From assembly GCA_037917675.1 (NCBI GenBank), contig JAVCBW010000038.1:1-13819 (forward strand): 13,819 nucleotides of DNA, read 5' to 3'. This DNA comes from Thermoproteota archaeon. Lineage in GTDB: Archaea; Korarchaeota; Korarchaeia; B14-G2. The notes under the pieces were generated by a model, which was given only the letters and a program-made list of their open reading frames with translations, made no database searches and was not told the origin of the DNA. Of this stretch, positions 1,328 through 13,819 are shown one piece after another (the stretch's first letter is position 1; the number at the start of each line of letters is the position of its first letter). Both the position numbers and the translations under genes were made by a program.

Positions 1328-2095
1328 CTGACCTTAGACAAGACTACACTGCTGCTCTTCTCTGCTGCAAGCTCTCTGGTAGTCCTCTTCCTCCTTGCTC
1401 CTCTGGTGCTTACAGCTGTGACAGCAGACTATCGGCTTGTAGCTAGCTCAGTAGCTAGGAGGGAGGTTATGGAGTCCTTCGCCAACACGCTTGTGGCAGC
1501 ATCTCTATCAACTCTGCTTCTGGTAGCAGTAGGTGTCCCTCTGGCATACCTCCTGGCTAGATGCCAGTTCAAGGGGAGGCAGCTTGTGGAGGCCATAGTA
1601 GACCTCCCCTTAGCTCTGCCACATGCTGTAGCAGGAGTCCTGGTGATAGTAGCCTATGGGTCTAGAGCTCCTATAGGCTCACTGCTAGCTCAAGCTGGCT
1701 TAGCAATAGAAGACAGGCTAGCTGGAGTGGTCTTAGCGATGGCCTATGTTTCAGCTCCGTTCCTAATAGACTCAGCTAAAGACGGCTTCAAGTCCATAGA
1801 CCCTATGCTAGAGCATGTAGCCAGGACTCTAGGTGCAACACCTCTCAAGGTGTTTGCTTACATAAGCCTCCCTCTAGCTTGGAGGGGCATAGCTACTGGA
1901 GCTCTCCTGAGCTGGGCTAGAGCAATAAGCGAGGTTGGGGCCTTGCTCATTGTAGCATACTACCCGAAGACAGTGAACATCCTGGTAATAGAGTGGTTTA
2001 ACACCTATGGGCTAGCTTATGCGAAGGCCTTGACCATACCACTGCTAGCTCTATGCATACTAGTGTTCACCTTGATAAGGCTATCAGAGAGGTGA
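1328..2095 (+). CDS. modB: Molybdate/tungstate ABC transporter permease (ModB/WtpB)
   Basis: Motifs DLPLALPHAVAG, MAYVSAPF, EAA-like loop EHVARTLGA, LSWARAISEVGA, AYYP. The frame extends upstream of 1406 through a hydrophobic TM1 to a CTG at 1328 preceded by a GGTGGTG RBS. Confidence 0.92.
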   Translation: MTLDKTTLLLFSAASSLVVLFLLAPLVLTAVTADYRLVASSVARREVMESFANTLVAASLSTLLLVAVGVPLAYLLARCQFKGRQLVEAIVDLPLALPHAVAGVLVIVAYGSRAPIGSLLAQAGLAIEDRLAGVVLAMAYVSAPFLIDSAKDGFKSIDPMLEHVARTLGATPLKVFAYISLPLAWRGIATGALLSWARAISEVGALLIVAYYPKTVNILVIEWFNTYGLAYAKALTIPLLALCILVFTLIRLSER

Positions 2096-2099
2096 GAGC

Positions 2100-3158
2100 T
2101 TGATTAGGATAGAGGATCTCACCTTAGAACTAGGGGAGTTCAAGCTAGACGACATAACCCTAGAGGCTAGAGCAGGAGAGTACATGGTTGTAATGGGCCC
2201 AAGTGGAGCAGGGAAAACCCTGCTGCTCCACACGATAGCAGGAATATATAGGCCATCTAGAGGGAGAGTGTTCATAGCTGGCCGAGATGTGACAGCTGAC
2301 CCCCCAGAGAAGCGGCGTGTAGCTCTTGTTCCACAAGACTATGCGCTCTTCCCCCACATGACAGCATATGAGAACATAGCATTTGGCCTCATTCAGAGGA
2401 AGCTTCCTAGAGGCGAGGTAGATCAGAGGGTGAAGGACATAGCTGAGGTCCTTGGTGTCAAGCATCTCCTCCACAGGAAGCCAGCTACACTGAGTGGGGG
2501 AGAGCAGCAGAGGATAGCCTTAGCTAGAGCACTAGTCACTGACCCAGATGTGCTGCTGCTAGATGAGCCTACAGCAGCTCTAGACCCACCTCTGAGGGCA
2601 GAAGCTAGAAGGTACCTGAAGCAGCTACATGCAGAGCTAGAGTTCACAGCAGTACATGTCACACACAGCTTCACAGAGGCAGCTGAGCTAGCTGACAGAA
2701 TAGCTTTCATGAGGGAAGGCCGCATACTCCAGGCTGGAACCCTAGAGGAGATCCTCTATGCTCCAGCATCCCCCAAGATAGCAGAGTTCACAGGAGACAT
2801 AAACGCTTACAGGGCTAGGATGGTAGCTGACTTGGGGGGGCAAGCTGAAGTTGAGGTGGAAGGCATAAGGCTTAGAGCAGTCAAGGCACCAGGAGCACAG
2901 AGCAGAGGCATACTGGTCGTGAGGCCAGAAGACATCATAGTCTCAAGAGAGAAGCCAAGAGGCTTGAGTGCAAGGAACATGCTGCAGGCACGAGTAGAGG
3001 AAGTAGCTCAGAAGGGCCCCCTCTACCTGGTGTCCTCTAAGGCAGGCCAAATCAATGTCAAAGCCTACCTGACGAGGGCTTCGCTAGAGGAGCTGGAGGT
3101 AAAGCCAGGAGCCATGGTCTATCTCACATTCAAGGTGAGCAGCACAGTATACAGGTGA
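2100..3158 (+). CDS. modC: Molybdate/tungstate ABC transporter ATP-binding subunit with C-terminal TOBE regulatory domain (ModC/WtpC)
   Basis: Walker A GPSGAGKT, signature LSGGEQQR, Walker B LLLDEP, VTH switch, C-terminal SARN oxyanion-binding motif. AGGTGA RBS precedes the TTG. Confidence 0.93.
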   Translation: MIRIEDLTLELGEFKLDDITLEARAGEYMVVMGPSGAGKTLLLHTIAGIYRPSRGRVFIAGRDVTADPPEKRRVALVPQDYALFPHMTAYENIAFGLIQRKLPRGEVDQRVKDIAEVLGVKHLLHRKPATLSGGEQQRIALARALVTDPDVLLLDEPTAALDPPLRAEARRYLKQLHAELEFTAVHVTHSFTEAAELADRIAFMREGRILQAGTLEEILYAPASPKIAEFTGDINAYRARMVADLGGQAEVEVEGIRLRAVKAPGAQSRGILVVRPEDIIVSREKPRGLSARNMLQARVEEVAQKGPLYLVSSKAGQINVKAYLTRASLEELEVKPGAMVYLTFKVSSTVYR

Positions 3159-3160
3159 AG

Positions 3161-3994
3161 CTACCTCCTAAGCCTCACCTCTACCATGTGGTACCTGAAG
3201 CCAAGCCTCTCAGATGGCACGCCAGCTGCCAAAGCTAGGAGCTGAGTCAGGTAGAGGACTGGCAGCCTCCTGCTCCAGCCTCTCTGAGCTAGCTCAAGCT
3301 GCCTGAAGCAGGTTGGGCACACAACAACCATGCACTCTGCACCAGCATCCAGTGCGTTACTAAGCTTAAGCCTAGCCTGCTCGAGTGAAAGCTCTCTATC
3401 AGCCCTCCACACATAGTAGGCGCAGCAGAGCTCCTCACCCTCATAGGAGACTGGCTCAGCTCCTGCAGCTGAGACAAGCTCCCTGAGAGCCCTAGGGCTC
3501 TTTACATCATCATACTCAGGGAGCTCCTCATAGATGTGGCATCCCAGGTGGGTTGCAGCCTTCACCTCAACAGGCCTCTCGACAGCAGCCTTCACACCAT
3601 CCACTCCAACCTCCTCGTATAGCAGCCTGAGTATGCTCTCCACCCTAGCCCCCCCGCTATAGCTCCTGCCTACCGCACTCAGGTACCTGTTCACCTCCTC
3701 CCTCTTCTCTTCGCTTCCAAGCTCCCTCCAAGCTGAAAGCAAGCTCTTAGTGCACCCGCTGCACAGCGAGACCAGCTCTAGGCCAGCCTCCTCTGCGAGC
3801 GAGAGGTTTCTAGCTGCTAGCACAAGCCAGCTAACCTTGTCTAGGAGCTGCATGGACGATGGCTCAGGGCAGCATGAGAACCCGCTTAAGCTCACAGCCT
3901 CAATCCCAAGCTTCTCCAGCAGAAGCCTGGTAGCAGCCTCGAACTGTGGGTACCTAGCTGAGATCACACAGCCAGGGAAGATAAGCTTCCTCAT
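3161..3994 (-). CDS. hdrB: Heterodisulfide reductase subunit B-like protein (two CCG domains)
   Basis: Two complete non-cubane [4Fe-4S] motifs: C9, C41-C42, C78-x2-C81 and C152(H153), C190-C191, C226-x2-C229. AARNL motif present. ATGA overlap with the upstream gene. Confidence 0.9.
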   Translation of the reverse strand: MRKLIFPGCVISARYPQFEAATRLLLEKLGIEAVSLSGFSCCPEPSSMQLLDKVSWLVLAARNLSLAEEAGLELVSLCSGCTKSLLSAWRELGSEEKREEVNRYLSAVGRSYSGGARVESILRLLYEEVGVDGVKAAVERPVEVKAATHLGCHIYEELPEYDDVKSPRALRELVSAAGAEPVSYEGEELCCAYYVWRADRELSLEQARLKLSNALDAGAECMVVVCPTCFRQLELAQRGWSRRLPVLYLTQLLALAAGVPSERLGFRYHMVEVRLRR

Positions 3995-4773
3995 CTTCCC
4001 ACCCTCCTCAAGAGCCCAGTTTCCTCAAGAAGCCTCTTGACCTCCCCAGCACCGAAGTCTACCTCCTCAGCTAGCCCAAGCTCCCTCCTCCTTCGAGCTG
4101 AGGCTGTGGTGAACGGGATCCCACAGCCACTTTCAGCAACTGACCTCACAATCCCACTGAACATCTCCAGTATCCCTCTAAACCTATCGAGTGCAGCTGG
4201 CTTGAACTCAGGCTCAGCTTCAGCTCCCCTCGCGAGCCTCAGTAGCAGAGCAGGCTCCCTGACTTCAGCTGGAGGCTCCACCACGACACCAAGCTGGAGA
4301 GCTAGCCCACTAGCCACCATGAGAGCAGCTTCACGTGCAGCCTCCTCTTCGCTTCTAAACCTGAGTGCTCCAGTTGGGCATGCCTCGACACAGGCTGGTG
4401 GAAGCCCATCCTCTAGCCTACTAGGACACCTATCACACTTCAAGACGCCACCATCTCCAGGTGAGACAGCTGCAAATGGGCAGACCATCATACAAGACCT
4501 ACAGCCTATGCATAGCTCCCTATCGTACTCTACTATGTCACCAGCTCTCTTGAGAGCTCCAGTAGGACACACGACTACACACGGAGGGCTATCACAGTGC
4601 ATGCAGAGCACTGGGAGAGGGAGCATAGCTACAGGAACAACCTTGATCCTAGGCTTCACACGCTCAAGCATAGCTGAAGCAAGGCTTTTACCAGGAGAGT
4701 GCTCTACTGCGCAAGCTATCTCACAGCTCCTGCAGCCAGTACACCTCCATGGGTCTACATAAAGCATCTGCAC
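3991..4773 (-). CDS. CooF/DmsB-type 4x[4Fe-4S] polyferredoxin fused to an HdrC-like C-terminal tail
   Basis: 16 Cys in four cluster motifs; paralog of 5078-5686. The tail GIVRSVAESGCGIPF...RRRRELGL...EVKRLLEETGL resembles the HdrC C-terminus. Start placed at GTG 4773 (GGTGG RBS at 4780-4784) rather than 4827. Confidence 0.85.
   Translation of the reverse strand: MQMLYVDPWRCTGCRSCEIACAVEHSPGKSLASAMLERVKPRIKVVPVAMLPLPVLCMHCDSPPCVVVCPTGALKRAGDIVEYDRELCIGCRSCMMVCPFAAVSPGDGGVLKCDRCPSRLEDGLPPACVEACPTGALRFRSEEEAAREAALMVASGLALQLGVVVEPPAEVREPALLLRLARGAEAEPEFKPAALDRFRGILEMFSGIVRSVAESGCGIPFTTASARRRRELGLAEEVDFGAGEVKRLLEETGLLRRVGR
4358..4405 (-). repeat. Outer inverted repeat, copy 1 (48 bp; pairs with 5479-5526)
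   Basis: Reverse complement matches 5479-5526 at 47/48; encodes LPPACVEACPTGALRF. Confidence 0.95.
4697..4729 (-). repeat. Inner inverted repeat, copy 1 (33 bp; pairs with 5143-5175)
   Basis: Reverse complement GAGCTGTGAGATAGCTTGCGCAGTAGAGCACTC is identical to 5143-5175. Confidence 0.95.
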
Positions 4774-5010
4774 ATGAAGCCACCAACCCCCTATTCTGCC
4801 AAGCTTAATAACACTTATCTGCCACATGGCTCATAGCTTTAGACAAGAGCAGCGCTGCAAATCAGCCTGCACCTAGCAAGATGCCTCCGTTGCTGCTAGT
4901 AGCTTAACAGGTTTATCCCCACTTGCATCTGGGTGCTATGCTGATGGCAGTCTAAGCCCACTGCACTGGTGTCACATTTCTACAAAAAGTAACACTATCA
5001 GCTGACTTGG

Positions 5011-5029
5011 TTTAAGTACTTTACTTAAA
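5011..5029. promoter_or_regulatory. Palindromic operator or back-to-back TATA-like element in the divergent promoter
   Basis: TTTAAGTA-CTT-TACTTAAA, a perfect 8-bp inverted repeat. Confidence 0.5.
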
Positions 5030-5077
5030 GGGCACGAAACCTTTATCTGCCATACTTATTGGGGCTCTGGGGGGAAG

Positions 5078-5686
5078 TTGCCTGAGAGCATATCTCCTGA
5101 GTACCTGATATACATCGACTCATCTAGGTGTGTTGCATGCAAGAGCTGTGAGATAGCTTGCGCAGTAGAGCACTCCGAGTCGAAAACGCTTATTTCAGCT
5201 ATATTCGAGGCTCCTAAGCCTAGGCCTAGGGTCAAGGTCGTTGTAGCAGCTACACTCACGGTTCCAATAAGATGCATGCACTGTGATCCAGCACCATGCA
5301 TAGAGGTCTGTCCGACAAAGGCCATGTATAGGGTAGAAGAAGGATATGTGCTATCTGACCCAGTTAAGTGTATAGGGTGTAGGGCATGCCTGATAGCATG
5401 TCCATTCGGCCACCCAGCTTACAGCCGTGAGCTTAAGGTCATAAAGTGTGACCACTGTATAGAGAGGCTCAGACAAGAGCTTCCACCAGCCTGTGTCGAG
5501 GCATGCCCGACTGGAGCACTCAGGTTCGGTAGAGCTGAGGAGCTTCTCCTTGAGGTCAAGGAGAAGAAGGCTGCTGAGCTGGTCACCGGGGTTGTGAGCC
5601 CAGGTGTGGCTTACGCTAAGCCACCTGAGAAGCCCTCCCCCCTATCTATGATTAAGGAGATGTATGAGCCTGTGAGGTGGACTTAG
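5078..5686 (+). CDS. cooF: CO dehydrogenase-associated iron-sulfur protein CooF (4x[4Fe-4S])
   Basis: 16 Cys: CxxCxxCxxxC, CxxCx4CxxxCP, CxxCxxCxxxCP, CxxC..CxxxCP. The stop codon directly abuts the cooS ATG. Confidence 0.9.
   Translation: MPESISPEYLIYIDSSRCVACKSCEIACAVEHSESKTLISAIFEAPKPRPRVKVVVAATLTVPIRCMHCDPAPCIEVCPTKAMYRVEEGYVLSDPVKCIGCRACLIACPFGHPAYSRELKVIKCDHCIERLRQELPPACVEACPTGALRFGRAEELLLEVKEKKAAELVTGVVSPGVAYAKPPEKPSPLSMIKEMYEPVRWT
5143..5175 (+). repeat. Inner inverted repeat, copy 2 (33 bp)
   Basis: 33/33 identical to the reverse complement of 4697-4729; encodes SCEIACAVEHS. Confidence 0.95.
5479..5526 (+). repeat. Outer inverted repeat, copy 2 (48 bp)
   Basis: 47/48 identical to the reverse complement of 4358-4405; the single mismatch at 5509 is synonymous. 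Confidence 0.95.
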
Positions 5687-7615
5687 ATGGCTGCTGAAAG
5701 GATCTATGAGAGGCTCATGAAGGTCTCTCGAAGAGAGTTCTATGAGGGAGTCTCGATAGACCCTACTGTAGCCCCCCTCCTTGAGAAAGCTGAGAGAGAT
5801 AAGGTTGAGATAGCCTGGCATAGGTATCTGGCTCAGCAGCCTCAGTGTGGCTTCGGCCTACTTGGGGTATGCTGTAGGAACTGCAACATGGGCCCATGTA
5901 GGATAGATCCATTTGGATACGGCCCCTCCAAGGGGACGTGTGGAGCTACAGCAGACACCATAGTAGCTAGGAACCTCATGAGAGCTCTTGCAGCTGGAGC
6001 AGCAGCACACAGCGACCATGCTCGTGACATAGTTAAGGTCTTCAAGGGGATCCCAGAGGGCTGGGCTAAGGGATATACGATAAAGGACGAGGAGAAGCTG
6101 AGGAATGTGGCGAGGAGCCTAGGCATACAGGTTGAGGGCAGGGATGTCAAGGAGATAGCTCTAGATGTTGCCAAGATCCTTGAGATGGAGTTCGGGAAGC
6201 CAGGGGAAGACCCGCTTAAGCTGGCTGAAGCTCTAGCTCCAGAGAGGAGGAAGCGGGTCTGGAGGAAGATAGGGATAATGCCTAGGGCGATAGACAGGGA
6301 GGTGACAGAGATAATGCACAGGACACATATGGGAGTTGATGCAGATCCACTCAGCCTGATAGCTCAGGGGCTGAGGTGCGCCTTGGCAGATGGCTGGAGC
6401 GGCTCAATGATGGCTACGCTGCTAAGTGACATAATGTTCGGGACTCCAAAGCCTCTGAGGTCAGCAGCAAACCTAGGGGTTCTCAGGGAGAAGGCAGTCA
6501 ACATACTCGTACACGGGCACAACCCTGTGCTCTCCATGAAGATAGCTGAGGCAGCAGAGGACCCTGAGCTAGTGGAGCTAGCGAGGAAGCTGGGTGCAGA
6601 GGAGGGGATAAACGTAGTAGGCATGTGCTGCACAGGAAACGAGGTTCTCATGAGGCTTGGGATCCCGGTAGCAGGGAACATGCTCCAGCAGGAGCTAGCT
6701 ATAGTAACGGGAGCACTAGAAGCTGTTGTAGTAGACTACCAGTGTATAATGCCAGCTATAGTAGACGTGGCATCATGCTACCACACTAAGGTCATCACAA
6801 CAGAGCCTAAGGCACACATCCCTGGTGCAGTGCACATAGAGTTCGAGCCAGAGCATGCAGACGAGGTGGCGAAGAAGATAGTCAGGGTGGCAGTAGAGAA
6901 CTTCCCCAATAGGGTGAAGGAGAAGGTGCAGATACCTGAGGAGAAGATGGAGCTGACAGCAGGGTTCAGCGTGGAAGCCATACTAGAGGCTCTAGGTGGG
7001 ACGCTGGAGCCTCTAGCAAAAGCCCTGAAGGAGGGCAAGATAAAGGGTATAGCTGGTGTGGTAGGCTGTGTCAACCCTAAGGTAAGGCATGAGTACAGCC
7101 ATGTAACACTGACAAAGGAGCTCATAAAGAATGACATACTCGTCGTAGGGACAGGCTGCTGGGCTATAACAATGGGTAAGCATGGCCTGCTGAGGCCTGA
7201 AGCAGCTGAGCTAGCAGGCCCAGGCCTAAGGGAGATATGCAAAGCTCTAGGAGTACCGCCATGCCTACACATGGGGAGCTGTGTAGACTGCTCAAGGATG
7301 CTCATAGCTCTAGGCGCGCTAGCAGACTACCTCGGAGTAGACATATCAGACTTACCGGCAGCAGGGTCAGCTCCAGAGTGGATGAGTGAGAAGGCAGTCT
7401 CAATAGGCGCCTACTTCGTGGCTACAGGGCTCCTAGTACACTTAGGCACAATACCACCAGTCCTAGGGAGCAAAGCTGTAGTAGAGATACTTACAAGCAA
7501 GGCAGAAGAGCTGGTAGGAGGAAAGTTCTACGTGGAGCCAGATCCAGTGAAGGCAGCACAGACCCTGATAGCACACATAAGGGAGAAGAGGAAGAAGCTA
7601 GGCTGGCCAGAGTAG
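5687..7615 (+). CDS. cooS: Anaerobic Ni,Fe carbon monoxide dehydrogenase catalytic subunit
   Basis: D/B-cluster QCGFGLLGVCCRNCNMGPC..TCGA; HSDH; C-cluster ligands HGHNP, MCCTGNE, DYQC, VVGC, TGC, MGSCVD; catalytic Lys in WMSEKA. Confidence 0.97.
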   Translation: MAAERIYERLMKVSRREFYEGVSIDPTVAPLLEKAERDKVEIAWHRYLAQQPQCGFGLLGVCCRNCNMGPCRIDPFGYGPSKGTCGATADTIVARNLMRALAAGAAAHSDHARDIVKVFKGIPEGWAKGYTIKDEEKLRNVARSLGIQVEGRDVKEIALDVAKILEMEFGKPGEDPLKLAEALAPERRKRVWRKIGIMPRAIDREVTEIMHRTHMGVDADPLSLIAQGLRCALADGWSGSMMATLLSDIMFGTPKPLRSAANLGVLREKAVNILVHGHNPVLSMKIAEAAEDPELVELARKLGAEEGINVVGMCCTGNEVLMRLGIPVAGNMLQQELAIVTGALEAVVVDYQCIMPAIVDVASCYHTKVITTEPKAHIPGAVHIEFEPEHADEVAKKIVRVAVENFPNRVKEKVQIPEEKMELTAGFSVEAILEALGGTLEPLAKALKEGKIKGIAGVVGCVNPKVRHEYSHVTLTKELIKNDILVVGTGCWAITMGKHGLLRPEAAELAGPGLREICKALGVPPCLHMGSCVDCSRMLIALGALADYLGVDISDLPAAGSAPEWMSEKAVSIGAYFVATGLLVHLGTIPPVLGSKAVVEILTSKAEELVGGKFYVEPDPVKAAQTLIAHIREKRKKLGWPE

Positions 7616-9313: not shown

Positions 9314-11089
9314 ATGGGGGTGTTAGGGTCTAGCTTGAAAGGTAGGCTTCTGGTAGCTGTCCTCTTGACGCTTCTTGCTCTAGCGCCTCTAGCTGGTAGG
9401 AGGGTAGCTAGCAGAGGAGAGCACCTACCCTTCTCACTATACCACATTACTCCACTGAATAGGATCCTTTACCCTAGAGTTGCTGCGCCAGCTTTCTGTG
9501 AGGCTGGGGGGGCTCTGACAGTGTACGTTGGCTACATTGAGGGCGAAAAGCCTGCTAAGAGCACTGAGTGGAGCGGCAGCTTGGAGTCTATCCTCTATGG
9601 GAGCTATGAGCTAGAGAAGCTAGAGCAGAGCTTTGATGAGAGAGGCTTCTGGAGGATAGAGTTCAGGGTCCCTGATGAAGCTGAGGGCCTCTACAACCTG
9701 ACGCTTAGAGCTGAGGGCATGGTGTTCACTGAGCCAAACTGCATCAAGGTGTATAGGGAGTTTCCTAGCGAGCTCAGAGCTGGGGTGCTTACTGATAACC
9801 ACGTTGGCTTGAGGAGGCAGCTGAGATACAAGGTGAATAATGAGGTGTTTGAGGTTGTGCTTGCTACACTAGACTCCCTAGGCTTAGACCTGATAGTAGA
9901 CTGTGGTGACATCGTTGACGCTACAGCAGATGAGGAGCCATATAGGTATGTCTATGAGCTGATATCCCAGCTAGCTACGCCAATACTCTTCACAATGGGC
10001 AACAACGACTACTACACTATTGAAAAGGGGAGGTGGTGGTGGGAGAAGTACTTTACTCCACTGAGATGGAGTACGACGATAGGAAGATACCACTTCATCT
10101 CTCTAGACACAGATACAGGGAGAGTGACAGATGAGGCCTTGAGCTGGCTAGAGGAGGACATGGCTCTCAATAGGGACAAGAAGATAGTGCTCTTCTTCCA
10201 CTACCCATACTGGGATCCAAACCAGATATCACCTAACGCATATGAGAAGCTGCCTAAGCTCATAGAGGAGCATAATGTCATCCTAGTTCTGCTAGGGCAT
10301 AGGCACATAGATGAGGTCAGGAAGCCACCTGAGCTCCCTGCTCTGACAATAACAACTACAGCTACAGCAGCATCTCAGAGGTATCGTGGCTACCGCCTGC
10401 TCACCATCAAGAGTGAGCATGTAGAGTATACGCCTGAGAGCACACCCTATGAGAAGCTTGGAGTGAAGCTCCTCCAGAGGAGGGATGGAAGCTCAACAGG
10501 GGTGGCAGCCAAGGTGTGGAACAAGCTGGGTGAGCCAGCTACTCTAAGGATCCTAGTGAGGCTCAAGCCAGGACCACTTAAAGCTGAGGGAGCTGAAGCA
10601 AAGGCCGCGAGGGAGTCTAGGGGTGCTCTAGCTGCAGCTCTGGAGGTGAGCCTGCCACCAGGCTCAGAGAAGGTCATCAAAGCCTATACTATGGAGGACA
10701 AGGCTCCACCTAAAGTTGAGGTGCACCCTGATGAAGCTGAAGACTACATTTCACTAGACTACACTGCATCAGACATAGGCCTCGGTGTGCTAGAGGTTAC
10801 TGTGTACTACAGCCATGACAACAAGACATGGAATAGAGCTCAGGTTAAGGTTGTAGACGAATACCCTCTGCCGACAGCTCCGAAGGCTGAGAGAGTCTAC
10901 TATAAGGCTGAGGCAGTGGATGCAGCTGGAAACAAGGCTGTAGCATACGGGGTGTATGAGGCTAAGCCGCCGGCAGCTACATCGGAGATAGAGGAGAGGA
11001 AGGTGGCTCCAGCTTTAGGGCTTGTAGGTGCTGTTGTGGCTGCTGCAGCTATAGCTGTAGTCTTAGTCTTATGGAGGATGAGAAGGTGA
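9314..11089 (+). CDS. Secreted, C-terminally anchored calcineurin-like metallophosphoesterase (variant GNND motif)
   Basis: Signal peptide; motifs TDNH, CGD, GNND, FHYP, GHRH; beta-rich flanking domains; C-terminal TM helix plus RMRR. Confidence 0.85.
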   Translation: MGVLGSSLKGRLLVAVLLTLLALAPLAGRRVASRGEHLPFSLYHITPLNRILYPRVAAPAFCEAGGALTVYVGYIEGEKPAKSTEWSGSLESILYGSYELEKLEQSFDERGFWRIEFRVPDEAEGLYNLTLRAEGMVFTEPNCIKVYREFPSELRAGVLTDNHVGLRRQLRYKVNNEVFEVVLATLDSLGLDLIVDCGDIVDATADEEPYRYVYELISQLATPILFTMGNNDYYTIEKGRWWWEKYFTPLRWSTTIGRYHFISLDTDTGRVTDEALSWLEEDMALNRDKKIVLFFHYPYWDPNQISPNAYEKLPKLIEEHNVILVLLGHRHIDEVRKPPELPALTITTTATAASQRYRGYRLLTIKSEHVEYTPESTPYEKLGVKLLQRRDGSSTGVAAKVWNKLGEPATLRILVRLKPGPLKAEGAEAKAARESRGALAAALEVSLPPGSEKVIKAYTMEDKAPPKVEVHPDEAEDYISLDYTASDIGLGVLEVTVYYSHDNKTWNRAQVKVVDEYPLPTAPKAERVYYKAEAVDAAGNKAVAYGVYEAKPPAATSEIEERKVAPALGLVGAVVAAAAIAVVLVLWRMRR

Positions 11090-12807
11090 AGGCTAAGGTT
11101 GCAGTGCTCCTAGCAATCACCTTCATGTCCATTCTCGCAGTGAGCTGCCAGCCAGCTACTCCACTCAACAAGGTGTGGTGGCCTAGGCTAGGTTTCCCTG
11201 CTTTCGTGAAGCCGGGTGGCAACATAACCGTGGAGCTAGCTAGCATAGAGCCCCAGGCAATATACCTGGTCAACGAAACCCATAGGCTCAAGCTCAAAGT
11301 GAAGTCGAAGCATAGAGATGGCTGGCTGGCTAAGGCTGTAGCTGAGGTCCCAGTGGAGGCAGGTGAAGGCCTCTATAACCTTAGTGTGCTAGCTAGCAAT
11401 GGAGCATTCGAGGAGCCCCACTCAGTCTACGTCTATAAGGCCACTAGGATTCCATTCACCATATTCTGGATAACTGACACACACTATGATGTCAAGCCTG
11501 GAGCAGAGTACCTTAGGCTCATATTCAGGAAGTGGATTAGGATAGCAAACTTCCTGAAGCCAGACCTCATCGTCGTCACTGGGGACATCGTAAACAACCC
11601 GCCGGAGCACCTCTTTAAGTCAGTTTACAGAGAGCTACTAGAGCTAGAGGTTCCAGTCCTCTTGGTCCCAGGGAACCATGACTGGTCTAAGGAGGGATAC
11701 TTCATAAGGTACCTGTCTGTCTCAAACCGCTCTCTCACGATAGACTGGATCCACCTGGTTGCCCTAGACACGGGGCCAGGAGGCTTTCACGGCTGGCTCA
11801 CCGAGGAGCAGATGGACTGGCTAGAAGAGGACTTAGCTGCTCACAGTGGGTGCCCAGTTAAGCTGCTGCTCATGCATCACCCACTCTACCACATTGAGAA
11901 CAGGACTGGAGCAAGCTTGATGAGGCTAGCTGACATAGCTAGGAGATATAATGTTAGCTTGATCCTATCAGGGCACTCTCATGTCAACAAGGACATTATG
12001 GAGCCAGTACACTACCTGGTTGGGACAAGTGGCTTCAAGGGAGGGAAGCCTTACTCTGGCTTCTACCTCCTGAAGCTCACTCCACAGGGAGTAGACTACA
12101 AGATAAATGGCACATACAAGCCCATACCACACAGGGACTTCGAAGTCAAGCCTCTACAGAGGAACGCTGGTGAGAAGCCTGCTATAGCAGTCTATCTGAG
12201 GAACAGCTGGTGGTTCCCAGTCAAAGGCTACCTGAAGCTTAGGCTGAAGAAAGCTGGGAGGCAGCTTGAAGTAGAGGGAGGCAAGCTCACATCTCAGGTC
12301 AACGCTGGAAGCTACATGATAGCTGAGGTTGAGGTGAGGCTCAAGCCAGGAGAAGAGAAGCTGGTGAAAGCATGCTATGCTCAAGCACAGGACAGGCAGC
12401 CGCCCAAAGTGGTCGATGTAGGCTACAAGATCAGAGAGAGCCTGGCTGTAGCCATAGCAACCCTCACGATAACAGTAGAGGACGACTACCTCGGAGTTAG
12501 AGACGTGACAGTAGCCTACACAACAGATAACAAGACGTGGTCAGCTATGAAGCCAGTCTACATCTCACCAGACACCTACCAGGCAGTGATACAGGTACAA
12601 AAAGGCCCACCATACCTGACAGTAAAGGTGAGAGCAGAAGACCTAACTGGAAAGACTACAGAGAAAGCCATCACAATAAAGCTGCCAAAGCCACCAGAAG
12701 AGCAGAAGCCAGAAGAGAAGACCCCTCTAACGATAGTAGCCATAGCTACAGCTATGGCCGTAGCTATAGTAGCCATAGCCCTATACCTGGTAAGGAGGAG
12801 GCCATAA
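11086..12807 (+). CDS. Secreted, C-terminally anchored calcineurin-like metallophosphoesterase
   Basis: Signal peptide; motifs TDTH, TGD, GNHD, MHHP, GHSH; Pro/Glu/Lys linker, TM helix, RRR. Likely start GTG 11086 (GTGA overlap, GGAGG at 11073-11077); ATG 11071 is the alternative. Confidence 0.88.
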   Translation: MKAKVAVLLAITFMSILAVSCQPATPLNKVWWPRLGFPAFVKPGGNITVELASIEPQAIYLVNETHRLKLKVKSKHRDGWLAKAVAEVPVEAGEGLYNLSVLASNGAFEEPHSVYVYKATRIPFTIFWITDTHYDVKPGAEYLRLIFRKWIRIANFLKPDLIVVTGDIVNNPPEHLFKSVYRELLELEVPVLLVPGNHDWSKEGYFIRYLSVSNRSLTIDWIHLVALDTGPGGFHGWLTEEQMDWLEEDLAAHSGCPVKLLLMHHPLYHIENRTGASLMRLADIARRYNVSLILSGHSHVNKDIMEPVHYLVGTSGFKGGKPYSGFYLLKLTPQGVDYKINGTYKPIPHRDFEVKPLQRNAGEKPAIAVYLRNSWWFPVKGYLKLRLKKAGRQLEVEGGKLTSQVNAGSYMIAEVEVRLKPGEEKLVKACYAQAQDRQPPKVVDVGYKIRESLAVAIATLTITVEDDYLGVRDVTVAYTTDNKTWSAMKPVYISPDTYQAVIQVQKGPPYLTVKVRAEDLTGKTTEKAITIKLPKPPEEQKPEEKTPLTIVAIATAMAVAIVAIALYLVRRRP

Positions 12808-13172
12808 GCGCCTGCTACACCAGAGGTCTAATAGCTCTCCTAAAGCCAGTAGGGCTACAGCACATCTAGAAGGTCTATAGCTTATGTAGCTAGCTGCTGC
12901 CATAAGCGAAAAAGACGGTAGCTAGCTGAGAGCATAGAGCACAGCATAGGCTCTAGAGAGTGCTAGGAAACTAGATCTCAGAGCACCTTGTGCCTACTTT
13001 CATGAGCCTGATAGCAGAGCTCTCAGACAAGAGTAGCTCGAGGTCTAATGCATTGCATGTAGGAGGTCTACCGCATGCTCTAAGCTGATGGCATGAAGCT
13101 CACATAAGCTAGTAGCCTCCTTTGCTCCTGAAACCGCTATGTTTAGAAGCTGCCATAATAAGTGTGAGGGAA

Positions 13173-13180
13173 ATATAATA
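13173..13180 (+). promoter_or_regulatory. TATA box with purine-rich BRE
   Basis: GAGGGAA-ATATAATA ~22 nt before ATG 13202. Confidence 0.5.
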
Positions 13181-13201
13181 GCTGCCAGTAGGCTATATAA
13201 G

Positions 13202-13399
13202 ATGGAGACTGAGGCTAGGGAGATCCGTAGGAGGATGGCTGACTAGAGCTTCATTAGGAGGCAGCCTCCAAGGCTGAAGGCTACACTAGAATACTACATT
13301 GAGACTGGCGACTTGAGGAGAGCACAGAGGATAGCTGGAGTGAAGCTAGAGGAGTTTATAGACCTGATCAAGAGAGCTGGGATCCCAACAGGCCTCTAA
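13202..13399 (+). pseudogene. Small archaeal HTH-like protein gene (PaREP6-like/antitoxin-like) interrupted by an in-frame TAG
   Basis: METEAREIRRRMAD*SFIRRQPPRLKATLEYYIETGDLRRAQRIAGVKLEEFIDLIKRAGIPTGL, with TAG at 13244-13246. The family label is from recollection. Confidence 0.65.
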
Positions 13400-13440
13400 C
13401 GTAGTGGAAGCTAGCTGATAGGCTGTACTCATCCCAAGCT

Positions 13441-13645
13441 TGCTCTAGGATTATAGGCTCAAGTCGTGCCCCAATCCCTTGATGAGGTAGCTAAAAGTGG
13501 TGATAAGGTAGCTCTTAGGACCTACACCTCCTCTACGCCTCGTAAACATGCCTTCGGCTGCAGTTTCTGTTTTCATAGAGATACAGAGGGTAGGTGTGTT
13601 GATTAGTGGAGGCTTTGATTTCCCTGTGGTGCTTGCTGATGGGAG
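13441..13645 (+). pseudogene. Decayed fragment of a ThiI-like (PP-loop) tRNA sulfurtransferase gene
   Basis: With frameshifts, 13583-13642 reads TEGR..LISGGFDFPV..LM, resembling ThiI GTxGKVxxLxSGGxDSPVAAWLM. Weaker THUMP-like scraps lie upstream. Confidence 0.4.
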
Positions 13646-13819
13646 CCTTGTCAGGCCACCTAGTGGCTATCGGATCTAAGCCTCTAGATGTTGGGCTCTA
13701 GGCTGCTCCAAAAGCCCTACTAGAGGCATAAGCCCCAACGACGAGGAAGCAGCCATAGACAAAACCACATACATCCATGAAAGCATACCAGCTGTGAGCT
13801 CCAAGTTCTCCACCTGCTT

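What the first reader, a model, noticed from the sequence alone, without database searches (positions are those of the whole stretch)
3161..7615. Compact putative CO:(hetero)disulfide oxidoreductase: cooS-cooF divergent from cooF/hdrC-hybrid-hdrB, without HdrA
Seen: two translationally coupled two-gene operons diverge from a ~300-bp intergenic region, and all cluster ligands of CooS, both polyferredoxins and HdrB are intact. No acs/cdh, Ech/Coo hydrogenase, flavoprotein, hdrA or mvhD is in the window. Known: CooS normally passes electrons via CooF to a hydrogenase or FAD-NAD oxidoreductase, and HdrB normally receives them from HdrA via HdrC. Inference: an all Fe-S, non-bifurcating wire CO -> CooS -> CooF -> CooF/HdrC hybrid -> HdrB -> disulfide or polysulfide. 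I do not recall this architecture being described.
Basis: partly seen in the sequence, partly recalled or inferred. Interest (0 to 1): 0.85.

Follow-up and report, generated by a model that had tools for sequence, protein, structure and literature searches.

The report
CO dehydrogenase beside flavin-free Hdr-like reductase
An archaeal CO-oxidising enzyme sits back to back with an unusual two-protein relative of heterodisulfide reductase whose electron-wire subunit is a fusion of two known protein types, which suggests, but does not prove, a direct iron-sulfur route from CO to an unknown disulfide-like acceptor.

Summary
cooF-cooS (5078-7615, +) and a CooF-type polyferredoxin plus a 2xCCG HdrB-like gene (4773-3161, -) diverge from a 304-bp spacer. 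Each pair is translationally coupled and all expected Cys are present. The "CooF/HdrC hybrid" is real. Its orphan C-terminal tail has one relative among 1.84 billion representatives, yet it matches the C-terminal part of HdrC by profile (hhalign 93.5%). No HdrA lies on the contig, which is the whole window, but the genome has at least five hdrA paralogues elsewhere.

The HdrB-like protein falls in a small clade (SH-aLRT 98, 7 rows) whose partners are never HdrC or HdrA. They are CooF-like proteins plus this tail, fused or free, next to tungsten AOR or no obvious donor. A sister group joins the tail to a NuoC-like subunit of a NiFe hydrogenase.

The CooS linkage itself is seen only here, and probably in one ~90% relative. 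In 10 other genomes of the phylum, cooFS-cooC is instead followed by hdrA, and in the 7 read in full by mvhD-hdrC-hdrB as well.

The CO-to-HdrB wire is plausible. A CooF-hybrid complex prediction gave weak support. The wire is unproven and the acceptor is unknown (no mcrA, ComA or DsrC found). I class it as a new variant of a known kind.

The parts
5687..7615 (+). cooS, Ni-CODH catalytic subunit (642 aa)
   Evidence: TIGR01702 749.8 bits against a cut-off of 478. Best solved relative is 6t7j_B at 1022.9 bits, which is Thermococcus sp. AM4 CODH2 (PMC13703895 passages). The ATG directly follows the cooF stop.
5078..5686 (+). cooF, 4x[4Fe-4S] polyferredoxin (202 aa, TTG start)
   Evidence: Fer4_11 at 2e-20. 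16 invariant Cys in 24 sequences. 60-69% identical by tblastn to the CooF encoded upstream of cooS in eight loci of the phylum, 43% in L243.
4774..5077 (.). divergent intergenic region holding a 15-nt direct repeat (4810-4824 and 5038-5052)
   Evidence: 13 of 15 bases are identical. The 10-mer core occurs 7 times in the 1.78-Mb genome, 2 of them here, and the 15-mer pattern occurs only here. Its function is unknown.
4324..4773 (-). hybrid, N-terminal CooF-type 4-cluster domain (aa 1-150 of the 260-aa form; an alternative ATG at 4827 gives 278 aa)
   Evidence: Fer4_11 at 3.3e-18. 16 invariant Cys. 54% identical to the adjacent CooF. Model pLDDT 74-95 in 10-residue blocks over aa 1-150.
3991..4323 (-). 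hybrid, C-terminal linker and HdrC-type tail; the segment that aligns to HdrC aa 122-173 lies at about 4009-4167
   Evidence: No Pfam match. One relative (P0002) among 1.84 billion representatives. Profile match to the HdrC C-terminus at 93.5%. PDB top hits are HdrC chains. Low pLDDT as a monomer.
3161..3994 (-). HdrB-like 2xCCG protein (277 aa)
   Evidence: PF02754 twice. 5odc_B at E 1.4e-58. Ten invariant Cys. ATGA overlap with the hybrid stop. Sits in a clade of 7 rows with non-HdrC partners.

Best explanation
The locus encodes two modules.

(1) An ordinary monofunctional Ni-CODH, CooS, with its CooF.

(2) A two-subunit, flavin-free relative of the HdrBC catalytic core. In it the usual 2-cluster ferredoxin domain of HdrC has been replaced by a CooF-type 4-cluster domain. 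The C-terminal part of HdrC is kept and presumably clamps onto the HdrB-like subunit. That subunit keeps the ten Cys of the two non-cubane [4Fe-4S] clusters.

Most likely route: electrons from CO pass CooS -> CooF -> hybrid -> HdrB-like active site and reduce a disulfide-type acceptor, with no bifurcation and no energy conservation. This would serve as a redox-poising or thiol-regenerating route.

Shown here: gene anatomy, ligands, the hybrid nature, and the family-wide absence of HdrC and HdrA beside this HdrB clade.

Inferred: that the hybrid and the HdrB-like protein bind each other, that CooF feeds the hybrid, and that the acceptor is a disulfide. The identity of the acceptor is unknown.
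For: - Anatomy and ligands.
- The tail matches the HdrC C-terminal segment: hhalign 93.5%, E 2.2e-7, 52 columns. Four of the 5 PDB hits of the tail profile, and the best four, are HdrC chains at E 0.015-0.13.
- The same tail motif occurs fused to CooF-like proteins (L065, L144), as free 97-126-aa ORFs just upstream of the HdrB-like gene (L062, L063, L064, L161), and at the C-terminus of NuoC-like proteins (L066 and others).
- In the tree of 71 HdrB-like rows the window protein lies in an SH-aLRT 98 clade of 7 rows, none with HdrC.
- Of 80 genome loci, 70 have HdrC directly upstream. The 9 closest relatives (40-47% identity) have a CooF-like protein instead and no HdrA within 6 kb.
- Donor enzymes beside the module elsewhere are low-potential ones. 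Tungsten-type AOR with a CooF-like protein is divergently arranged, exactly as here (L062, L064). Group-4 NiFe hydrogenase is the other case.
- CO-Hdr gene linkage is common in the phylum: 10 of 14 CooS loci looked at.
- Complex prediction, hybrid aa 1-150 with CooF, gave weak support. Score 0.49, best of 3 controls 0.00. The mark was reached by 116 of 157 solved complexes and 2 of 215 mismatched pairs, but at 0.60 or under by only 18 of those 157 and by both mismatches that passed. The runs agree in at least 51% of contacts and the partner pLDDT is at least 76.
- Flank depths are equal on both sides of the junction in public contigs.
Against: - The cooS linkage of this module is unique so far. 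None of the 18 other loci with a CooF-like partner and none of the 6 other clade members has cooS nearby.
- No orthologue of the HdrB-like protein was found in the 42 other genomes of the phylum (best 41%).
- Divergent neighbours need not work together.
- The weak complex score may reflect memory of solved polyferredoxin chains (HycB3/HycB4 in 7qv7, AorA in 8c0z), and the two chains are paralogues.
- The genome has at least 5 hdrA paralogues, some without their own hdrBC.
- The HdrB-like protein scores below the HdrB equivalog cut-off, so the substrate may differ.
- mcrA, ComA and DsrC were not found.
- Dissipating about 380 mV without conservation (potentials recalled) is unusual for an energy-limited anaerobe.
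Confidence: 0.45

Rival explanations
1. The two operons are functionally independent neighbours. CooS-CooF reduces the general ferredoxin pool, or feeds an HdrA-MvhD-HdrCB complex encoded elsewhere, as the gene order of relatives suggests. The hybrid/HdrB-like pair is a ferredoxin-level reductase. It takes electrons from the pool or from another enzyme such as one of the five AOR paralogues.
For: - In 10 of 14 CooS loci of the phylum, cooFS-cooC is followed by hdrA, and in the 7 read in full by mvhD-hdrC-hdrB as well.
- The own genome keeps HdrA-MvhD-HdrC-HdrB on C21, and its HdrB groups with the CODH-linked ones (SH-aLRT 94, long branches).
- Other members of the hybrid/HdrB clade sit beside AOR or no donor at all.
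- The own genome has 5 AOR paralogues.
Against: - The hybrid N-domain is a CooF paralogue: 54% to the adjacent CooF against 31-38% to the AOR-linked CooF-like proteins.
- The divergent layout mirrors the AOR loci.
- A rare 15-nt repeat lies before both operons.
- The complex prediction gave weak support.
Confidence: 0.3
2. The hybrid/HdrB-like pair is the BC part of a bifurcating complex and docks onto one of the orphan HdrA(-MvhD) proteins encoded elsewhere. The system would then not be flavin-free.
For: At least 5 hdrA paralogues (C21, C43, C54 two to three copies, C57, C42), several with mvhD but no adjacent hdrBC (CCG map).
Against: - The ferredoxin domain of HdrC, which links HdrA to HdrB (PMC5861303 passages), is replaced by a different, 4-cluster fold.
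- No HdrA was found in the DNA held around any of the 6 other clade members or the 15 hydrogenase-linked members: up to 6-8 kb each side, less where the contig is shorter.
Confidence: 0.1
3. The CCG protein is not a disulfide reductase. The module may reduce another acceptor, or act on a protein-bound or CoA-linked sulfur compound, as other CCG proteins such as SdhE, GlcF and LutA have other roles.
For: - HdrB equivalog score is below the cut-off (221.8 against 345.15), and the second-best family is the MFR anchor SdhE at 133 bits.
- No mcrA, ComA or DsrC found.
- Relatives lie beside acyl-CoA enzymes, a 4HBT thioesterase or EamA transporters.
Against: All ten Cys of the two non-cubane clusters are kept, and the best solved relatives are all HdrB chains (E 1.4e-58 to 7.8e-41).
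Confidence: 0.15

Closest known systems
HdrBC core of MvhAGD-HdrABC (solved: 5odc, 8rvu)
   Same: The HdrB-like subunit has two CCG domains and ten cluster Cys. Its partner keeps the HdrC C-terminal segment. Gene order is C-like then B, translationally coupled.
   Different: There is no HdrA or MvhD in the locus. The 2x[4Fe-4S] Fer4_8/Fer4_17 domain of HdrC is replaced by a CooF-type 4x[4Fe-4S] Fer4_11 domain. HdrB scores below the equivalog cut-off. The organism has no mcrA that I could find.
CooS-CooF modules coupled to ECH hydrogenase or FAD-NAD(P) oxidoreductase (contexts listed in PMC6344411, passages seen)
   Same: cooF-cooS pair with CooS close to Thermococcus AM4 CODH2. Both classical contexts exist in the same phylum: L242 Mrp/complex-I-like and L243 Pyr_redox_2.
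   Different: Here the neighbour is neither a hydrogenase nor a flavoprotein but an all-Fe-S HdrBC-like pair on the opposite strand.
cooF-cooS-cooC-hdrA-mvhD::fd-hdrC-hdrB operon of phylum relatives
   Same: It links an orthologous CooFS (72-83% CooS identity) genetically to an Hdr-type reductase.
   Different: It contains HdrA and MvhD, a normal HdrC and a shorter CCG protein (243-254 aa, 26-30% identical to the window's), all on one strand and preceded by V4R and LysR-type regulators. Its CCG proteins form a separate, distant clade.
Polyferredoxin 'wires' of HDCR (HycB3/HycB4, 7qv7) and AOR (AorA, 8c0z)
   Same: These are the best solved relatives of the hybrid N-domain by sequence. Two CooF-type proteins in one locus could chain clusters in the same way (weak support).
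   Different: No filament is implied here, and the end of the chain is an HdrB-type site. That those proteins form wires is recalled, not tested.
HdrD of HdrDE (fused HdrC+HdrB, flavin-free)
   Same: Also a non-bifurcating HdrB-type site fed through Fe-S clusters only (recalled). HdrD-like fusions exist in the own genome (C42, C58).
   Different: Not fused, no cytochrome b partner on the contig, and a CooF-type instead of an HdrC-type cluster domain.

Membership tests
Ni-CODH catalytic subunit CooS (TIGR01702) | Full-length match above the curated cut-off | tested here: met
   749.8 bits against 478, model positions 2-620 of 621.
Ni-CODH catalytic subunit CooS (TIGR01702) | Cys/His ligands of the B, C and D clusters | tested here: met
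   All Cys/His motifs are identical to those of solved 6t7j_B in the printed alignment. Which residue binds which cluster is recalled.
CooF-type polyferredoxin (Fer4_11, four [4Fe-4S]) | Four Cys motifs, 16 Cys | tested here: met
   CooF: 16 invariant Cys. Hybrid N-domain: 16 invariant Cys.
HdrB (TIGR03288, CoB-CoM heterodisulfide reductase subunit B) | Score above the equivalog cut-off | tested here: not met
   221.8 bits against a cut-off of 345.15.
HdrB (TIGR03288, CoB-CoM heterodisulfide reductase subunit B) | Two CCG domains with 5+5 Cys for two non-cubane [4Fe-4S] clusters | tested here: met
   PF02754 twice. C9, 41, 42, 78, 81 and C152, 190, 191, 226, 229 are invariant and align with 5odc_B.
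HdrB (TIGR03288, CoB-CoM heterodisulfide reductase subunit B) | Encoded with HdrC and working with HdrA | tested here: not met
   The partner has only the HdrC tail. There is no HdrA on the contig. HdrA copies elsewhere are not excluded as partners.
HdrB (TIGR03288, CoB-CoM heterodisulfide reductase subunit B) | CoM-S-S-CoB available as substrate (methanogenic or alkanotrophic cofactor set) | tested here: not met
   mcrA TIGR03256 and ComA PF02679 were not found in the 92.7%-complete genome. Absence from an incomplete MAG is not proof.
HdrC | 2x[4Fe-4S] Fer4_8/Fer4_17 ferredoxin domain | tested here: not met
   The hybrid matches Fer4_11 and related models, not Fer4_8 or Fer4_17. The own HdrC copies match Fer4_8 and Fer4_17.
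HdrC | C-terminal segment following the ferredoxin domain | tested here: met
   hhalign 93.5%, aligned to HdrC aa 122-173 of 185. PDB HdrC chains are the top hits. That this segment holds HdrB in the solved complex is recalled.
CODH-FNOR and CODH-ECH systems | Flavoprotein, or membrane hydrogenase genes, next to cooFS | tested here: not met
   None among the 11 ORFs of the contig scanned.

The most novel reading that the evidence does not exclude
The HdrC-type tail is a portable docking peptide. It defines a family of flavin-free HdrB-type terminal reductase modules that plug into different low-potential oxidoreductases: Ni-CODH here, tungsten AOR in Nezhaarchaeales-like MAGs, and a soluble group-4 NiFe hydrogenase in Bathyarchaeia. 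In this archaeon the result would be a soluble, non-bifurcating CO:disulfide (or other thiol-redox) oxidoreductase. It would replace the HdrA-containing CODH-Hdr operon of its relatives.
Probability: 0.35. Interest if true: 0.8.

Novelty: new variant of a known kind. Interest (0 to 1): 0.62.

Why it matters
HdrB-type sites are known to be fed either through the bifurcating flavoprotein HdrA or through membrane-bound HdrE. A soluble, all-Fe-S feed from CODH, and by analogy from AOR and NiFe hydrogenase, would be a third way to use this ancient catalytic core.

It would also name a new physiological partner for monofunctional Ni-CODHs, most of which have no known function. The 50-residue docking tail would become a handle for finding such modules in genomes.

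The contrast with the cooFSC-hdrA-mvhD-hdrCB operon in relatives gives a natural pair for asking what bifurcation adds when the donor is already as reducing as CO.

Tried and rejected
- The search for related loci with the single CCG protein in genome contigs found no relative. The alignment was needed.
- The search of earlier findings was not open.
I therefore could not confirm that P0013 (CooF, 90%) and P0121 (CCG, 91%) lie on one 3925-bp contig. Only the equal contig length suggests it.
- The same-genus genome G004 is uninformative. Its cooS is cut by a contig end at aa 161, and neither cooF nor the hybrid is in the assembly.
- RNA evidence: no RNA holder listed, so expression and co-induction could not be addressed.
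- The two DNA holders are of nearly equal size and may be one data set, so I do not count them as independent.
- The monomer model of the hybrid gave a low-confidence tail (pLDDT 36-59), so no fold search of the tail was made.
- The tail profile found only 3 proteins of 41-175 aa at E<=0.001 in the word-indexed search. That search cannot see fused forms.
- A CorR-like regulator of the relatives was not found in the own genome with one query.
- An assembly chimera was considered. The public unitigs break at short inverted repeats between the paralogous cooF and hybrid genes (an exact 30-mer, 5479-5508 against 4405-4376). The flanks have equal depth (223 against 226, and 316 against 318), and any path through inverted repeats keeps the two flanks linked. 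I rejected the chimera as unlikely.
- Literature: six searches and passages of PMC6344411, PMC13056359, PMC6775978 and two bioRxiv preprints gave no description of this hybrid or of a cooFSC-hdrA operon. PMC6344411 only lists Hdr-like COGs among Wood-Ljungdahl-associated CODH contexts. Supplements were not read.


Full report
**1. What is in the sequence**

The window is a complete 13,819-bp contig (C4) of a 1.78-Mb archaeal MAG with 62 contigs, 92.7% complete.

ORF listing and family scans give four genes on the minus and plus strands:
- On the minus strand, a 277-aa protein with two CCG domains (3161-3994). Its best NCBIfam is HdrB TIGR03288 at 221.8 bits, below the cut-off of 345.15. Next is the MFR anchor SdhE at 133 bits.
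- Directly upstream of it, a polyferredoxin (3991-4827 as the longest ORF). Residues 22-165 match Fer4_11 and the DmsB/HydN/CooF kind of four-cluster protein. The last ~110 residues match nothing in Pfam.
- On the plus strand, CooF (5078-5686) and CooS (5687-7615; TIGR01702 at 749.8 bits, cut-off 478).

The public gene call for the polyferredoxin, and its only close relative, start at codon 19 (GTG at 4773, 260 aa).

The hybrid stop and the CCG start overlap as ATGA, and the cooF TAG abuts the cooS ATG.

All Cys ligands are present:
- 16 in CooF.
- 16 in the hybrid.
- Ten in the CCG protein, aligned with solved HdrB 5odc_B at E 1.4e-58.
- The CooS motifs are identical to those of 6t7j_B (1022.9 bits), which is Thermococcus sp. 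AM4 CODH2 (PMC13703895 passages). That enzyme is placed in clade E by PMC13056359 (passages).

The flanks are an HD hydrolase, WtpB/WtpC-like tungstate transporter genes, a MarR-like regulator, a 120-aa unknown and two metallophosphoesterases. None of the 11 ORFs scanned is a hydrogenase, flavoprotein, HdrA, MvhD or ACS gene.

**2. The hybrid**

The N-domain is a true CooF paralogue. It is 54% identical to the adjacent CooF and 47-54% identical to the CooF of relatives.

The word-indexed search gave 2815 CooF-like hits among 8000 scored. Of the 120 listed, only the self hit and P0002 (88%) cover the tail; all the others cover 49-76% of the query.

An exhaustive phmmer search with the 119-aa tail against 1.84 billion representatives found one protein, P0002.

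Even so, the tail carries a motif (S-G-x-x-x-P-x-[ST]...R-R-R-x-x-G-L) that I then found in other settings:
- in two other CooF-like::tail fusions (L065, L144);
- in free 97-126-aa ORFs just upstream of HdrB-like genes (L062, L063, L064, L161);
- at the C-terminus of 227-aa NuoC-like proteins (L066 and others).

A profile of ten such tails matches a profile of the three conventional HdrC proteins of this genome at 93.5% probability (E 2.2e-7) over HdrC residues 122-173 of 185. Against PDB sequences, the four best of its five hits are all HdrC chains (8rvv_C, 8rvu_c, 5odc_C, 9sfi_E; E 0.015-0.13), again over their C-terminal parts.

So 'CooF/HdrC hybrid' is correct. It is a CooF-type four-cluster domain joined to the C-terminal segment of HdrC. 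That this segment is what holds HdrB in the solved complex is my recollection of Wagner et al. 2017. The review passages I read say only that HdrC carries two [4Fe-4S] clusters and sits between HdrA and HdrB (PMC5861303).

As a monomer the tail models poorly (pLDDT 36-59, against 74-95 for the N-domain in 10-residue blocks over aa 1-150). This would fit a segment that folds on its partner but proves nothing.

**3. Relatives of the HdrB-like protein**

The closest relative is P0121 (91%, on a 3925-bp contig). The next ones are at most 49% identical.

Within the phylum (43 species genomes including this one) the best non-self match is 41%, no better than the genome's own paralogues. No orthologue was found there.

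From an alignment of 18 relatives I fetched 80 loci from species-representative genomes and 80 from metagenomes.

In the genome set:
- 70 of 80 have a conventional HdrC directly upstream, 43 of them with HdrA within 6 kb.
- 1 of 80 has no recognised partner.
- 9 of 80 have a CooF-like polyferredoxin instead. These are exactly the nine most similar (40-47% identity), and none has HdrC or HdrA in the locus.

In the metagenome set: 58 HdrC-type, 9 CooF-like-type, 12 cut by the contig edge and 1 without an upstream partner.

Pfam scans of the neighbours show three layouts:
- (a) An AOR-family tungsten enzyme plus a CooF-like protein on one strand, divergent from a tail ORF plus HdrB-like gene on the other (L062, L064). 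This is the same geometry as the window, with AOR in the place of CooS.
- (b) CooF-like, then NuoC-like::tail, then HdrB-like, then a group-4 NiFe large subunit, then NuoB-like::ferredoxin. HycI and HypF lie nearby at L066. There are 15 such loci, and the 5 from named genomes are labelled Bathyarchaeia/Bathyarchaeota.
- (c) Hybrid plus HdrB-like, or tail ORF plus HdrB-like with a CooF-like protein nearby, and no obvious donor (L065, L144, L063, L161).

A maximum-likelihood tree was built from 71 of 158 rows. The 87 left out were 11 rows of unknown context and 76 HdrC-type rows, of which every third was kept. The window protein falls in an SH-aLRT 98 clade of seven rows: two AOR-linked, two hybrids, two with a tail ORF, and the window. 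The hydrogenase-linked proteins form their own clade (100), and everything else has HdrC. The window row has a long branch (0.75) and an odd composition, so its exact place within that clade is unsure.

**4. Is the cooS linkage conserved?**

For this module, hardly.
- cooS is absent from all 18 other loci with a CooF-like partner and from the six other clade members.
- The only HdrB locus with a cooS nearby is L094, an HdrC-HdrB-cooS arrangement in a Methanomicula MAG.
- Indirect support comes from P0013. It is 90% identical to the window CooF and lies on a contig of 3925 bp, the same length as the contig of P0121.

At the level of 'CODH with Hdr' the linkage is strong. CooS orthologues (61-91%) occur in 19 of the 42 other genomes of the phylum. 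I looked at 14 of these loci:
- Ten have cooF-cooS-cooC followed by hdrA. In the seven read in full this continues with mvhD::ferredoxin, hdrC and a 243-254-aa CCG gene, and is preceded by V4R and LysR-type regulator genes.
- One has Mrp/complex-I-type membrane subunits (L242).
- One has a Pyr_redox_2 flavoprotein (L243).
- Two are cut by contig ends (G030, G004).
- Five further genomes with a CooS match were not examined.

The CCG proteins of the hdrA operon are only 26-30% identical to the window's and form a distant clade. The window organism therefore carries a different, flavin-free Hdr-like partner beside an orthologous CODH.

**5. The rest of the genome**

- mcrA, ComA and DsrC were not found.
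- CdhA (1173.9 bits), Fwd-like, Mer-like and Mtd genes are present. This looks like a non-methanogenic archaeon with the H4MPT Wood-Ljungdahl pathway.
- There are 11 CCG-domain ORFs. They include three conventional HdrB with HdrC, two TfrB-like fusions and several GlcF/HdrD-like proteins.
- There are at least five hdrA paralogues, several with mvhD and no adjacent hdrBC, one of them next to the cdh genes.
- A CooC-like gene lies on C1 (45%).

Hence 'without HdrA' is true of the locus and not of the cell.

**6. Mechanism**

The best-supported reading is a two-subunit HdrBC-like reductase whose electron entry has been rebuilt from a CooF-type domain, working without HdrA. Its position suggests it is fed by CooS through CooF.

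The single complex job tested the open link, hybrid aa 1-150 with CooF, and gave weak support:
- Score 0.49, best of three controls 0.00.
- The mark was reached by 116 of 157 solved complexes and 2 of 215 mismatched pairs, but at 0.60 or under by only 18 of those 157 and by both mismatches that passed.
- The runs agree in at least 51% of contacts, and the partner pLDDT is at least 76.
- The two chains are paralogues, and solved chains of such polyferredoxins exist (7qv7 HycB3/HycB4, 8c0z AorA). The score may therefore come from likeness to those.

A 15-nt direct repeat lies before both operons. It is unique in the genome, and its 10-mer core occurs 7 times in 1.78 Mb, twice here. It may be a shared control element. 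It is absent upstream of cooF in the relatives.

On recalled potentials (CO2/CO about -520 mV, CoM-S-S-CoB about -140 mV) the route would be strongly downhill and would conserve no energy. That fits thiol regeneration or redox poising better than energy metabolism. The acceptor is unknown. Neighbours of related modules (acyl-CoA enzymes, a thioesterase, EamA exporters) hint at a small thiol or CoA-linked compound, no more.

**7. Assembly**

Public unitigs covering the stretch break at four places. These are short inverted repeats between the paralogous cooF and hybrid genes. Depth is equal on both flanks, and no joint or loose end was reported. The adjacency is sound.

**8. Verdict**

The hybrid and the locus-level absence of HdrA are real, and comparative data make a flavin-free HdrB module credible. 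The CO-to-HdrB wire and the disulfide acceptor remain inference.

I found no description of this architecture in six literature searches. PMC6344411 lists Hdr-like COGs only among Wood-Ljungdahl-associated CODH contexts.

It is a new variant of known kinds (CODH-CooF modules and HdrBC cores), of real but not yet demonstrated interest.

Noticed in passing
L234-L239, L241 (full operon); L225, L230, L233 (start of hdrA only): In ten other genomes of the phylum cooF-cooS-cooC is followed by hdrA. In the seven read in full the operon runs V4R regulator, LysR-type regulator, cooF, cooS, cooC, hdrA, mvhD::ferredoxin, hdrC, then a short CCG protein. This looks like a CODH-fed HdrABC/MvhD complex. I found no description of it in my literature searches. 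The likeness of the two regulators to Thermococcus CorQR is recalled.
   Followed up: partly
Gene order is CooF-like, NuoC-like with an HdrC-type tail, HdrB-like, group-4 NiFe large subunit, NuoB-like::ferredoxin. No membrane subunits were seen in the stretch scanned, and HycI and HypF lie nearby at L066. This may be a soluble H2-linked HdrB-type reductase.
   Followed up: partly
L062:3010-6876 and L064:3034-6840: An AOR-family enzyme plus a CooF-like protein is divergent from a 100-126-aa tail ORF plus HdrB-like gene. Downstream lie 3-hydroxyacyl-CoA dehydrogenase, corrinoid adenosyltransferase, acyl-CoA synthetase and CoA-transferase genes. The geometry is the same as in the window, with AOR in place of CooS.
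   Followed up: partly
window 4810-4824 and 5038-5052: A 15-nt direct repeat (13 of 15 identical) lies before both divergent operons. Its 10-mer core occurs only 7 times in the whole genome. It may be a shared promoter or regulator site.
   Followed up: partly
window 5146-5508: The public unitig covering the middle of cooF has about 1.5 times the depth of its flanks in both runs (342 against 226, and 480 against 318). A second sequence in the sample may share this stretch. No second copy is in the assembled genome.
   Followed up: partly
window 9314-11089 and 11071-12807: Two paralogous ~580-590-aa metallophosphoesterases with hydrophobic N- and C-terminal stretches. The two genes overlap by 19 nt.
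   Followed up: no
window 12808-13819: About 1 kb at the contig end has no ORF of 50 aa or more, no tRNA, no Rfam match and no notable repeats.
   Followed up: partly
window 1406-3158: WtpB- and WtpC-like tungstate ABC transporter genes lie next to the HdrB-like gene. No binding-protein gene lies in the 934-1328 gap. The genome has five AOR paralogues that would need tungsten.
   Followed up: no
G000 contig C54, about 69188-75700: An hdrA-mvhD pair without hdrBC lies about 2 kb upstream of cdhA (ACDS alpha subunit).
   Followed up: no
L094:5491-8877: A Methanomicula MAG has hdrC-hdrB followed 160 bp later by a cooS (32% identical to the window's). This is the only cooS found near any of the 160 HdrB-like loci fetched.
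   Followed up: no
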